DNA of 64,000 nt from Myxococcales bacterium (GTDB taxonomy: Bacteria > Desulfobacterota > Binatia > HRBIN30). Within the stretch, counting starts at the first letter, position 1, and the number at the start of each line of letters is the position of its first letter. Shown here one piece after another: positions 45,001-48,000 of this stretch. Position numbers: made by a program. Location of the stretch: the NCBI GenBank assembly GCA_037445065.1, contig JBBILD010000015.1:1-64000 (forward strand), written 5' to 3'.

Positions 45001-48000
45001 GCGTGCACGGCGGCATCGTGCTCTTTGAGATGTTGGGTCAGACAGAGCAGGAGCGCGAAGACGTGCTGCGCCACCGAATCGGTGGCGTACTCGGGCACGT
45101 TGGAAACCGGAATGCCGCGAGCGCGTGCCGCACGCGTATCGACCAGATCGTAGCCGGTGGCCAATACGGAGATGAACTTGAGCCGCGGCAATTGTGACAA
45201 TGCGGAAGCGGGGAGGGGGGTTTTGTTGGTCAGCAGGATGTCGGCGTCGCGGGCACGTTCGAGCAGCGCTTCAGCCGGGGTACGGTCGTAGACCGCGAGA
45301 TTGCCGAGCGCGGCGAGCGCATCCCAGGGATTGTCGCCCGGGTTTACGGTGTATCCGTCGAGCACCACGATTTGGGTCATCGCTGTGCCTTTTCGTGCAA
45401 CGATTCCGCAATGAGAAGGGCGAGGCCGGTGCCGCGGTTACACTCGCTCCAAGGCTTGCGCGAGGTCGGCGATGAGGTCGTCGGCGTCTTCGATTCCGAC
45501 CGAGTACCGCACCAAATTGTCCTTGATCCCGATTTGCAACCGTTCCTCGGTAGTGAGTTCGTAGAAGCTCATGAGGGCTGGTTGCTCGATCAGGCTTTCC
45601 ACCCCGCCCAGCGACGGTGCGATGCGCGGAATCCGGCAGGCATCCACCAGGCGTGAAGCGGCGTGGAGGTCGCCCTTGACTTCGAAGGAGACCACGCCCC
45701 CAAAGCCTTTCATCTGGCGGCGCGCGATCTCGTGCTCCGGATGGGAAGGGAGGCTGGGGTAGTAGACTCGCTCCACTTTGGGGTGGCGGTCGAGAAATTC
45801 CGCAATCCGCGCAGCGTTCTCGTTCTGCCGCTGCACGCGCAACGCGAGCGTTTTTAGGCCCCGGATCAGCAAGTAGGCTGCAAAGGGGTCGGCCACAGCT
45901 CCGGTGATTCCCTGCAAGTCGCGAATTCCCGAGATGAGTTCCTCGGAGCCCAACACGACGCCAGCGAGCAAGTCATTGTGCCCGCCCAAGTACTTGGTGG
46001 CGGAGTGGATGACTAAATCGATGCCGAAGTCCATGGGCCGCTGGTTGATCGGAGTGGCGAACGTCGAGTCAATAATGGTTTTGACCCGATGGCGCCGGCC
46101 GATGTCCGCCACACGCTCCAGATCCAAGATGCGGTTGTACGGGTTGGTAGGAGATTCACTGAAGATGAGCCGGGTGGTGTGTCGCACCGCCTCTTCCATG
46201 CGTACGTAGTCGCCGGCGGGAACCGTGGACACCTCTACCCCGTAGCGGCGCAACACCTGATGCAAGAACTGGCGGGTGCGCCGGTACGCGTCATCGGTAA
46301 CGACGACGTGCGCGCCTTTGGAAAGCATGGCGAAGAGCGTCGTCGTGATGGCTGCCATGCCGCTCGAAAAGAGCAGTGCGTCTTCGGCTCCTTCGAGTGC
46401 GGCGAGTTTGCGTTCCGCCACACGCTGGGTCGGATTGCCGTAACGACCGTATTCTTCACGTTGGATTCGCCCTTCGAAGTGATCGGCGATTTCCGCTGAA
46501 TTCGCGAAGGTGTACGTAGCCGTTTGCACGATCGGCTCGGTCATGGCATTGGCCAGCTTGTGCTTGGCTTCGCCGCTGTGAACGGCTTGTGTGCTCGGGC
46601 CAGGGGATTTTGGTTCGTTCACCTCAGGCCTCCATCAGTCGGACTTTGTCAGCGAAGCGGCGAATCGCGTCTACGACTTTGCGCACATCCGCTGCGATCT
46701 CGAGCGGGTGGTTGGCGTACTTGGGTTTGATCTCGGGGATTTGCCCGAGGTGATAGGCAGTTTTTTGCTCGGAAAACTTGAGGCCGTGGGCGGTCGAGAT
46801 GACCACCACTCGCTGGTTGCTACGGATGACTTTCCGCTCCACCAGCTTGCGGAACACGGCCAGGGCTACGCCCGTATGGGGGCAGTTGAACATTCCCGTG
46901 CGGTCCGCCAGTGCCGCTTCATCGGCAAGTTCGCTTTCCGTCGCTTGCTCGACGACTCCATCGAACTGTTTCAGCACGCGGATGGCGCGCTTGTAACTGA
47001 CCGGGTTTCCGATCTGGATGGCGCTTGCCAGTGTTTTCTTTGCCTGCACAGGTTCGAAGGTTTCGAAGTTTTTGAGGTAAGAAAGATAGAGCGGGTTCGC
47101 ATTGGCCGCTTGCGCCACAGCGATGCGCGGCAGCTTTTGGATGAGGCCCAGCTCCTTCATCATCAAGAATCCCTTGCCTAGGGCGCTGACGTTGCCCAGG
47201 TTACCCCCCGGAATCACCACCCAGTCCGGGACCTCCCAGTCGAACTGCTGCACGAGTTCGATGGCAACGGTTTTTTGCCCCTCTAGGCGAAGGCTGTTCA
47301 TCGAGTTCGCGAGATAGACCGTTTTTTCCTTGGTGATTTCTTGCACCAAGGCCATGCAACCATCGAAGTCGGTGTCCAGGCTCAGGACGAGTGCACCGTT
47401 GGCAATCGGTTGGACGAGCTGGGCGGGAGAGACCTTGTTGCGTGGCAGCAACACTACAGCCGGAATCCCGGCAGCGGCACAATAATTGGCAAGAGCGGCA
47501 GAGGTGTCACCGGTCGAGGCGCAGGCGATGGCAGCGATTTGCTGGCCTTCCGCGATCATTTGTTTGACGACGGAAACGAGCACGGTCATGCCCAGGTCCT
47601 TGAAGGAGCCAGTGTGCGAGTTGCCGCATTGTTTGACCCAGAGGTCCTCGACGCCGAGCATCTTCCCGTAGCGTTCTGCCCACAACAGGTTCGTCCCACC
47701 TTCGTAGGTGGAGACGATGTTCTCATTGTCCAGGAAGGGAACGACCCACTCTTTCTTGCCCCAGACCCCAGAGCCATACGGGAACTCATTCCGGCGGTAG
47801 CGTTCGTCGAACAGCTTCATCCACGCGGCGGGCGAGCGACGGCGCAGCGCTTCGATGTCGTGCTGGACATCCAAGAGATCCCCGCAGGTCGGGCAGCGGT
47901 AGATGATCTCGAACAGGCTGAAGCGTGTGGGGCAACCATTGATGCACTCGAACCATGCACTGTACTCGCTCATCGTACTTGTCTCCCGTGACTTGAGCTG

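What a model noticed while it worked through the whole genome (the two positions that open the first line are those of the whole stretch)
45438..47973. Plant-type methionine entry: a cystathionine gamma-synthase closest to plant CGS, coupled to thrC, with no MetA, MetX or [...]
The only Cys/Met PLP enzyme (g02353) is closest to plant cystathionine gamma-synthase and begins 1 bp after threonine synthase (g02354). The genome has no homoserine acyltransferase, so methionine synthesis most likely branches from O-phosphohomoserine as in plants, not from acyl-homoserine as in bacteria.
Evidence so far: Best Swiss-Prot hits Arabidopsis and tobacco CGS1 (52%, 51%; call 187); best solved structure tobacco CGS 419 bits against 344 for the next family and 317 for bacterial MetB. 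Orthologue in 37 of 52 genomes of the order, thrC adjacent in 30 of 30 loci. MetA family 0 of 5; MetX 26 of 52, absent here and in 18 of the 37 genomes with the CGS, including all five of the sister genus. MetH and a ThrB-like kinase (g01123) are present.
(Added by a program. Inside this text positions count along the whole contig: contig position 1 is position 1 of the stretch shown here. "Call 12" and the like, gene names such as g00115 and contig names such as C1 are that model's own, and its searches are not shown. The text may have been shortened before it was handed on; [...] marks where a part breaks off. The agent that wrote the report below was given it as the finding of a first reader that could run no searches.)

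Follow-up and report, generated by a model that had tools for sequence, protein, structure and literature searches.

The report
Plant-type threonine/methionine branch-point operon
An uncultured bacterium carries, side by side, close relatives of the two plant enzymes that share O-phosphohomoserine between threonine and methionine and has none of the usual bacterial methionine-entry enzymes, so it probably makes methionine the plant way, though no enzyme has been assayed and the sulfur donor is open.

Summary
Confirmed and extended. 45438-46622 (-) encodes the genome's only Cys/Met PLP enzyme, in one clade with plant cystathionine gamma-synthase (CGS). The thrC 1 bp upstream is itself the plant type (Arabidopsis TS1 579 bits, next 184). 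The pair is adjacent in 75 of 80 related loci and fused in Nitrospirota. MetA, MetX, MetY, MetM-like and DUF39 routes were not found in this 97.7%-complete genome. Relatives' MetX sits behind its own MetY (13 of 13). In Anaerolineae, 17 of 20 orthologues lie behind a SAM riboswitch and overlap MetX less than expected (9 against 18.6); Methylomirabilota show no such avoidance. Best reading (0.72): a methionine-biosynthetic enzyme using O-phosphohomoserine. No beta-lyase and no convincing homoserine kinase were found. Six of 30 Anaerolineae loci and one fusion tie the enzyme to a sulfur-carrier module, so it may make homocysteine directly. Plant CGS and TS nest among these bacteria, but this lineage is not their sister. 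The scan reported the same operon on other genomes at least eight times; my ten literature searches found no description. Nothing is assayed.

The parts
45438..46622 (-). Plant-type CGS-family PLP enzyme, 394 aa (P0001); PLP lysine K210; clade signature E57, G59, R114, R115, R117
46629..46633 (-). Shine-Dalgarno-like GGAGG inside the last codons of thrC, 6 nt before the CGS start: translational coupling likely (inference)
46624..47973 (-). Plant-type (TS1-like) threonine synthase, 449 aa (P0002), with the N-terminal extension of the SAM-activated plant enzyme and a bacterial four-cysteine motif; the only threonine synthase found in the genome
51803..52693 (-). metF (methylenetetrahydrofolate reductase), same strand, 3.8 kb upstream; not shown to be co-transcribed (two unrelated genes lie between)
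   Evidence: TIGR00676 359.8 bits, cut-off 293.7; within 1.3-5 kb upstream in 5 of 8 wide loci and in G041

Best explanation
The two genes form a translationally coupled unit for the O-phosphohomoserine (OPH) branch point. The threonine synthase turns OPH into threonine. The CGS-family enzyme removes the gamma-phosphate of OPH on PLP and adds a sulfur nucleophile, which is the committed step to homocysteine; MetH and MetF then give methionine. No homoserine acylation is needed. Shown by sequence and genome comparison: identity of both enzymes, coupling, absence of other known entry routes, methionine-type regulation and context in relatives. Inferred: OPH as substrate; SAM activation of the TS; the source of OPH. 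Open: the sulfur donor. Because no beta-lyase is found, I split the second step as cysteine with the same enzyme or an unrecognised lyase cleaving cystathionine (about 0.4), free sulfide giving homocysteine directly (about 0.35), or a thiocarboxylated sulfur-carrier protein (about 0.25).
For: Both genes are plant-type. One clade of 96 of 124 rows (SH-aLRT 100) holds the window enzyme, its bacterial relatives and green-plant CGS. The basic motif after the PLP-stacking tyrosine (R114; R/K/Q115) is in 44 of 44 clade bacteria and 15 of 15 eukaryotes, 0 of 26 other family members. Plant-type TS lies directly upstream in 75 of 80 genome loci across several phylum labels; no third gene is conserved. 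62 of 215 long cluster representatives are TS-CGS fusions, 13 without a methionine at the junction; uninterrupted at DNA level in 2 of 36 loci that hold both genes. G000 lacks MetA, MetX, MetY, DUF39 and a second TS-like gene and a MetQ match, and has sulfate-assimilation, CysE-like, CysK, CysM, Hom, MetH and MetF genes. MetX is directly behind MetY in 13 of 13 genomes fetched. 51 of 52 genomes of the order hold at least one of CGS, MetX or a second TS-like paralogue; 11 hold only CGS. Anaerolineae: SAM-I riboswitch upstream on the same strand in 17 of 20 loci; aspartate kinase within 1.5 kb in 8 of 30; thrB directly downstream in one Chloroflexota locus; CGS 48, MetX 47, both 9 of 121, expected 18.6.
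Against: No assay. No cystathionine beta-lyase: PatB best 137 bits against 340 in G000, 5 of 52 in the order; the enzyme is the sole PF01053 member in 5 of 5 MetX-less relatives tested. No convincing homoserine kinase: no GHMP ThrB, no HomK, weak APH candidate in an unrelated operon. 21 of the 38 CGS genomes of the order also keep MetX. Methylomirabilota sample: CGS 29, MetX-like 27, both 8 of 101, expected 7.8, no avoidance. MetA was not searched outside the order. The Anaerolineae test is not corrected for kinship. Plant-type TS occurs without CGS beside it (family f4 and G017, 6 of 6 loci fetched). No riboswitch in the window or in 21 other loci. Plant CGS accepts acyl-homoserines too (recalled), so clade membership alone does not fix the substrate. 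G000 is 97.7% complete in 46 contigs.
Confidence: 0.72

Rival explanations
1. Strict plant pathway: OPH + cysteine gives cystathionine, and an unrecognised beta-lyase (a class I aminotransferase-like protein, for example) cleaves it. This is a variant inside the best explanation, not exclusive of it.
For: Residues recalled as the tobacco cysteine site (E107, Y111, S403) align with E57, Y61, S352. CysK, CysM and a CysE-like gene are present. PatB is found in 5 genomes of the order, all CGS carriers.
Against: No MetC, PatB or second PF01053 member in G000 or in five relatives; no lyase among neighbours in any locus set examined.
Confidence: 0.25
2. Carrier-dependent homocysteine synthase: the enzyme adds OPH to the thiocarboxylate of a MoaD/ThiS-like carrier charged by MoeB/MoeZ, and a JAB protease (Mec) releases homocysteine. 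Also a variant inside the best explanation.
For: 6 of 30 Anaerolineae loci have Mec, MoaD or MoeB directly downstream; in 5 wider stretches the order is CGS-Mec-(MoaD or MoeB)-aspartate kinase, two continuing to hom and asd, with no CysM, CysK or MetM-like hit. One clade member, P0280, has a ThiS domain fused in frame at its N-terminus. G000 has moeB-moaD-cysM, a MoeZ and a JAB protease candidate elsewhere, and lacks the TS-like gene that lies between moeB and moaD in G001, G009 and G010. The same module serves MetM from OPH in Streptomyces (10.1101/2024.10.14.618325, Appendix 4).
Against: 0 of 80 genome loci, 0 of 80 metagenome loci and 0 of 8 wide loci of the order have the module beside the gene. 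In G000 the carrier is explained by CysM. The ThiS fusion is one sequence from one contig, 1 of 16 long members scanned. SAM control of a general sulfur-relay module would give the same gene order.
Confidence: 0.2
3. The enzyme uses an acyl-homoserine made by an unrecognised acyltransferase; the link to thrC is only co-regulation of the aspartate pathway.
For: Plant CGS is promiscuous for the leaving group (recalled). 21 of 38 CGS genomes of the order keep MetX. A B. subtilis study raises promiscuous acylation as a possible MetA bypass (10.64898/2026.09.15.751699, passage).
Against: MetX comes with its own MetY (13 of 13); fusion to TS and adjacency to thrB point to OPH; basic residues replace the Gly-Gly of E. 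coli MetB.
Confidence: 0.13
4. The organism is a methionine auxotroph or recycler and the enzyme is catabolic (gamma-lyase) or serves cysteine metabolism.
For: Second-best structural family is methionine gamma-lyase; MetH and MetF also serve SAM recycling; no NCBIfam model reaches its cut-off among the 25 shown.
Against: SAM-I riboswitches and aspartate kinase/hom/asd operons in relatives, complementary distribution with other entry routes, no MetQ match, tree position with plant CGS.
Confidence: 0.07

Closest known systems
Plant cystathionine gamma-synthase (tobacco, PDB 1QGN/1I41; EC 2.5.1.160 recalled)
   Same: One clade; 51-53% identity; same active-site motifs.
   Different: No N-terminal extension, so no MTO1 region (described in PMC8137854); coupled to TS in an operon; no partner beta-lyase found; substrate untested.
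Arabidopsis threonine synthase TS1 (PDB 1E5X, 2C2B, 2C2G), SAM-activated (PMC9081730)
   Same: 579 bits over residues 8-441; 64-66% identity to algal TS; N-terminal extension present.
   Different: Has a four-cysteine motif that the eukaryote rows lack; SAM activation untested; one recalled SAM contact (N147) is E.
MetM/MetO/Mec/MoeZ route of Streptomyces (Hasebe 2024, seen only as summarised in 10.1101/2024.10.14.618325)
   Same: Bacterial homocysteine from OPH without acylation; carrier module beside some clade members.
   Different: MetM is a TS-fold enzyme; this is a Cys/Met-family enzyme. G000 has no MetM-like gene.
Bacterial MetB, MetY, MetZ and Xanthomonadales MetBX
   Same: Same PLP family; MetBX is a precedent for homocysteine synthesis without a separate MetC.
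   Different: They need MetA or MetX products; they lie outside the clade and lack the basic motif (E. coli MetB and three MetY tested).

Membership tests
Plant-type CGS | Cys/Met PLP fold with catalytic lysine | tested here: met
   PF01053 472.7 bits; K210
Plant-type CGS | Groups with plant CGS to the exclusion of MetB, MetC, MetY, MGL | tested here: met
   96-row clade, SH-aLRT 100, quick search, no bootstrap
Plant-type CGS | Active-site motifs of the tobacco enzyme | tested here: met
   E57, Y61, Y113, R114, R115, R117, S337, S352, R372; their roles are recalled, the structure paper was not read
Plant-type CGS | OPH + cysteine gives cystathionine | not testable with these tools
   needs an assay
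Plant-type CGS | N-terminal MTO1 regulatory region | tested here: not met
   394 aa; alignment to tobacco starts at residue 11 versus 59 of the mature chain
Plant transsulfuration pathway | Separate cystathionine beta-lyase | tested here: not met
   an unrecognised lyase is not excluded
Plant transsulfuration pathway | Homoserine kinase supplying OPH | tested here: inconclusive
Plant-type SAM-activated TS | TS1-like sequence with N-terminal extension | tested here: met
Plant-type SAM-activated TS | SAM-contact residues | tested here: inconclusive
   Of contacts recalled for 1E5X numbering, P102-Y103-G104, S125, N132, L133, K141 are identical, A126-F127 read T-Y, N147 reads E; N147 is also not kept in the 9 algal rows. 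The list is recalled; the paper was not held
Plant-type SAM-activated TS | Activation by SAM | not testable with these tools
   needs an assay
MetM thiocarboxylate route | TS-fold homocysteine synthase beside carrier, MoeZ and Mec | tested here: not met
   single TS in G000, not beside the carrier
Bacterial MetB/MetY/MetZ | NCBIfam equivalog cut-off and a MetA or MetX partner | tested here: not met

The most novel reading that the evidence does not exclude
The bacterial ancestors of plant CGS are OPH-dependent homocysteine synthases that need no beta-lyase, some or all taking sulfur from a ubiquitin-like carrier thiocarboxylate, paired with a SAM-activated threonine synthase so that the plant Thr/Met flux switch arose in a bacterial operon and was passed to plastid-bearing eukaryotes.
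Probability: 0.2. Interest if true: 0.85.

Novelty: new variant of a known kind. Interest (0 to 1): 0.63.

Why it matters
Methionine synthesis from OPH by CGS is described as a plant trait, and a 2026 preprint lists only plants and Streptomyces MetM for this route; the GapMind 2026 passages read add only MetM. If the reading holds, a third bacterial entry route fills a pathway gap in genomes of several phyla that would otherwise be called auxotrophs. It also gives concrete bacterial relatives for two non-cyanobacterial plastid enzymes (PMC3518814, Table 1), small leaderless versions for studying SAM allostery and substrate choice, and a natural TS-CGS fusion of two enzymes that compete for one substrate.

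Tried and rejected
Reading the coordinates as contig coordinates: 17864-20399 holds a different gene; rejected. MetX as supplier of the CGS substrate or as a serine acyltransferase: it lies behind MetY in 13 of 13; rejected. thrC as a mis-annotated MetM: it is TS1-like and the only TS; rejected. Fusions as gene-calling artefacts: P0275 (frameshifts) and P0273 (truncated TS) look artefactual and were left out; others are uninterrupted in DNA or lack the internal Met. Binatia as plant sister group: not supported in either tree; no test of one clade was run and both trees are quick searches with long-branch warnings. Riboswitch in the window: none. Promoter scan: 1 site against 1.9 expected, uninformative. 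ESM Atlas gave only family-level names. Plasmid collection: best match 45.8%, no clade member among the 40 rows shown. The single-protein search missed MetY in some genomes, so absence claims rest on family searches where run. The supplement of PMC3518814 was searched for enzyme names only; trees S76-S78 were not read, and may already show bacterial sisters of plant CGS and TS. No structure or complex was predicted and no reads were laid.

Full report
Observation. The finding's coordinates are window coordinates: 45438..46622 (-) encodes a 394-aa Cys/Met PLP enzyme and 46624..47973 (-) a 449-aa threonine synthase, one base apart, with a GGAGG inside the end of thrC. The genome (G000) is 3.79 Mb in 46 contigs, 97.7% complete; the named close relatives are mostly labelled Candidatus Binatia, with Rokubacteria/Methylomirabilota and Deltaproteobacteria labels next. 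The best solved structure is tobacco CGS at 418.7 bits, then a methionine gamma-lyase at 343.7. It is the only full-length PF01053 member.

The partner is plant-type too. It scores 579 bits against Arabidopsis TS1 and 184 against the next solved TS, and is the only TS among 8 PALP matches. So the unit holds both enzymes that compete for O-phosphohomoserine (OPH) in plants (pathway as in PMC8137854 and PMC11350084, passages). Of the SAM contacts that I recall for TS1, most are identical and one is not; that one also varies among algae. SAM activation is therefore plausible but not shown.

Conservation and fusion. A plant-type TS lies directly upstream in 75 of 80 genome loci; of the five others, two begin inside the CGS gene, one has 237 bp upstream, and two are Chloroflexota with other neighbours. 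No third gene is shared by more than one lineage. Among 215 long cluster representatives, 62 are TS-CGS fusions of at least 790 aa and 13 have no methionine at the junction; named ones are Nitrospira sp., Thermodesulfovibrionales and Nitrospirae. Of 80 metagenome loci, 2 are fused, 34 split, 39 hold TS only (many on short contigs) and 5 are incomplete; of 20 junctions printed, 2 are in frame, 17 overlap by 8-11 nt and 1 has a one-base gap. The fused CGS half is only about 49% identical to the window enzyme, so the linkage is old.

Phylogeny and motifs. In a quick maximum-likelihood tree of 124 rows, 96 rows form one clade (SH-aLRT 100) that holds the window enzyme, Binatia, Rokubacteria, Chloroflexota, Nitrospinota, the fusion halves and 15 named green-lineage or other eukaryote CGS; E. 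coli MetB and MetC, three MetY, a gamma-lyase and the paralogues fall outside. Plants are nested, next to two unnamed proteins, not next to Binatia. The TS tree (89 rows) shows the same pattern for streptophyte and red-algal TS. Both trees lack bootstraps and carry long-branch warnings. R114 and R/K/Q115, just after the PLP-stacking tyrosine, are in 44 of 44 clade bacteria, 15 of 15 eukaryotes and 0 of 26 outsiders. That such residues bind the substrate phosphate is inference from recalled structure work.

Pathway inventory. In G000: no MetA (0 of 52 in the order), no MetX or MetY, no DUF39 route (0 of 52), no second TS-like gene, no MetQ match. Present: aspartate kinase, Hom, MetH, MetF (in the window at 51803..52693), APS reductase and kinase, a sulfite-reductase-like gene, CysE-like, CysK, CysM. 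In the order, the orthologue is in 38 of 52, MetX in 27, both in 21. All 13 MetX loci fetched have metY directly upstream, so MetX has its own sulfhydrylase. A second, distant TS-like gene is in 23 genomes; of four loci fetched, three are moeB-TS-like-moaD-cysM operons of the MetM type and one is unrelated. 11 genomes hold only CGS, 7 only the TS-like paralogue, 1 only MetX, and 1 (83% complete) none. These tallies include the unpublished genome G021 (one of the 38, the 17 and the 11).

Regulation and context elsewhere. In a sample of 121 genomes of the class of G053 (an Anaerolineales record), 48 have the enzyme, 47 MetX, 9 both, against 18.6 expected (Fisher p 0.0003, kinship not corrected, MetA not searched). 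17 of 20 loci scanned (of 30 fetched) have a SAM-I riboswitch upstream on the same strand. Aspartate kinase is within 1.5 kb in 8 of 30 and thrB follows directly in one Chloroflexota locus. This marks the clade as methionine-biosynthetic. Against this, 101 genomes of the phylum of G052 (Rokubacteria record) give 29, 27 and 8 both, as chance predicts, and no riboswitch was found in the window or 21 other loci.

Two gaps. First, no beta-lyase: PatB scores 137 against 340 in G000 and passes in 5 of 52 genomes, and the enzyme is the sole PF01053 member in 5 of 5 MetX-less relatives tested. Second, no convincing homoserine kinase: the five GHMP kinases are mevalonate-pathway enzymes, IspE and GalK, HomK is in 6 of 52 and not here, and the APH candidate scores 59.7 against 255.9, although it is in 49 of 52 genomes. 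ThrB is a common gap, missing in 16 of 208 prototrophs.

A lead for the second step. Six of 30 Anaerolineae loci have Mec, MoaD or MoeB directly downstream; five wider stretches run CGS-Mec-(MoaD or MoeB)-aspartate kinase without a CysM or MetM-like hit. One clade member has a ThiS domain fused in frame. G000 has the module elsewhere, beside cysM. The module is absent beside the gene in 168 other loci, so it is a minority link. A Cys/Met-family enzyme using a carrier thiocarboxylate has a precedent in Wolinella MetY (recalled, not found).

Literature. Ten searches found no description of a bacterial plant-type CGS or of this operon; the library lacks most subscription journals. Seen: 10.1101/2024.10.14.618325 (abstract, passages, Appendix 4); 10.1101/741918 (passages; 19, 138); PMC3518814 (passages, Table 1 text, supplement searched for names only; 24, 53, 57), which lists plant CGS as non-cyanobacterial with support 100 and TS with support under 50; PMC4045070, PMC11350084, PMC9081730, PMC6411801, PMC4523565, PMC13257386, PMC8428831, PMC2323388, PMC12452182, PMC8137854 and 10.64898/2026.09.15.751699 (passages only; 25, 26, 54-56, 87, 88, 90, 91, 108, 114). 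Not seen: Steegborn 1999, Mas-Droux 2006, Gophna 2005, Ferla and Patrick 2014, Bastard 2017, Hasebe 2024.

Earlier notes of this scan report the same operon on eight other genomes. I had reached the operon, fusion and clade reading before that call; it gave the lead to scan for SAM riboswitches in other lineages, which I tested, and the title wording. No note held all the words of a search for the carrier link.

Verdict. A real, conserved plant-type Thr/Met branch-point operon. OPH entry into methionine synthesis is likely (0.72) and unassayed; the sulfur donor is open. A new variant of a known kind; interest 0.63.

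Noticed in passing
G001:C2:264000-274000 (L151), G009:C3:1269000-1279000 (L152), G010:C5:392000-402000 (L156): moeB - TS-like (PRK08197) - moaD - cysM operons resembling the MetM route; 7 of the 8 genomes of the order without CGS and MetX have the TS-like paralogue, while G000 has the same operon (bamD upstream as in G009) without it.
   Followed up: partly
P0280; L311-L316: Sulfur-carrier link in the CGS clade: a ThiS-CGS fusion and SAM-riboswitch operons with Mec, MoaD or MoeB, aspartate kinase, hom and asd.
   Followed up: partly
L115-L128: MetX in this order is a roughly 600-aa protein with MetW fused at the C-terminus (MetW domain confirmed in one), always behind metY in the 13 fetched.
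   Followed up: partly
G000:C1:231768-236390 and C24:55549-55791: Mevalonate kinase, phosphomevalonate kinase and diphosphomevalonate decarboxylase cluster together, and IspE is also present.
   Followed up: no
window 48051-49358 (+): 435-aa cysteine-rich, Thr/Pro-rich ORF without Pfam or NCBIfam match between metF and thrC; a related sequence lies at the same place in G041 and another in G000:C6.
   Followed up: no
window 46624-47973, residues 10-31: Four-cysteine motif (CxxxC, CxxC) in the bacterial TS, absent from the 9 algal rows; possible metal site lost in eukaryotes.
   Followed up: partly
G000:C6:33380-34423: APH-family kinase, single copy in 49 of 52 genomes, in a conserved queE - kinase - folE - aminotransferase - serA string; function unknown.
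   Followed up: partly
L129-L134, L153, L154: The slot between hom and glpX holds HomK in some genomes and a short bacterial thrC in G001 and G009.
   Followed up: no
window 57557-60397 (+): 946-aa ORF with a myxobacterial-type cysteine-rich repeat.
   Followed up: no
L239:11820-11993 (-): c-di-AMP riboswitch 3 kb downstream of a TS-CGS pair in a metagenome contig.
   Followed up: no
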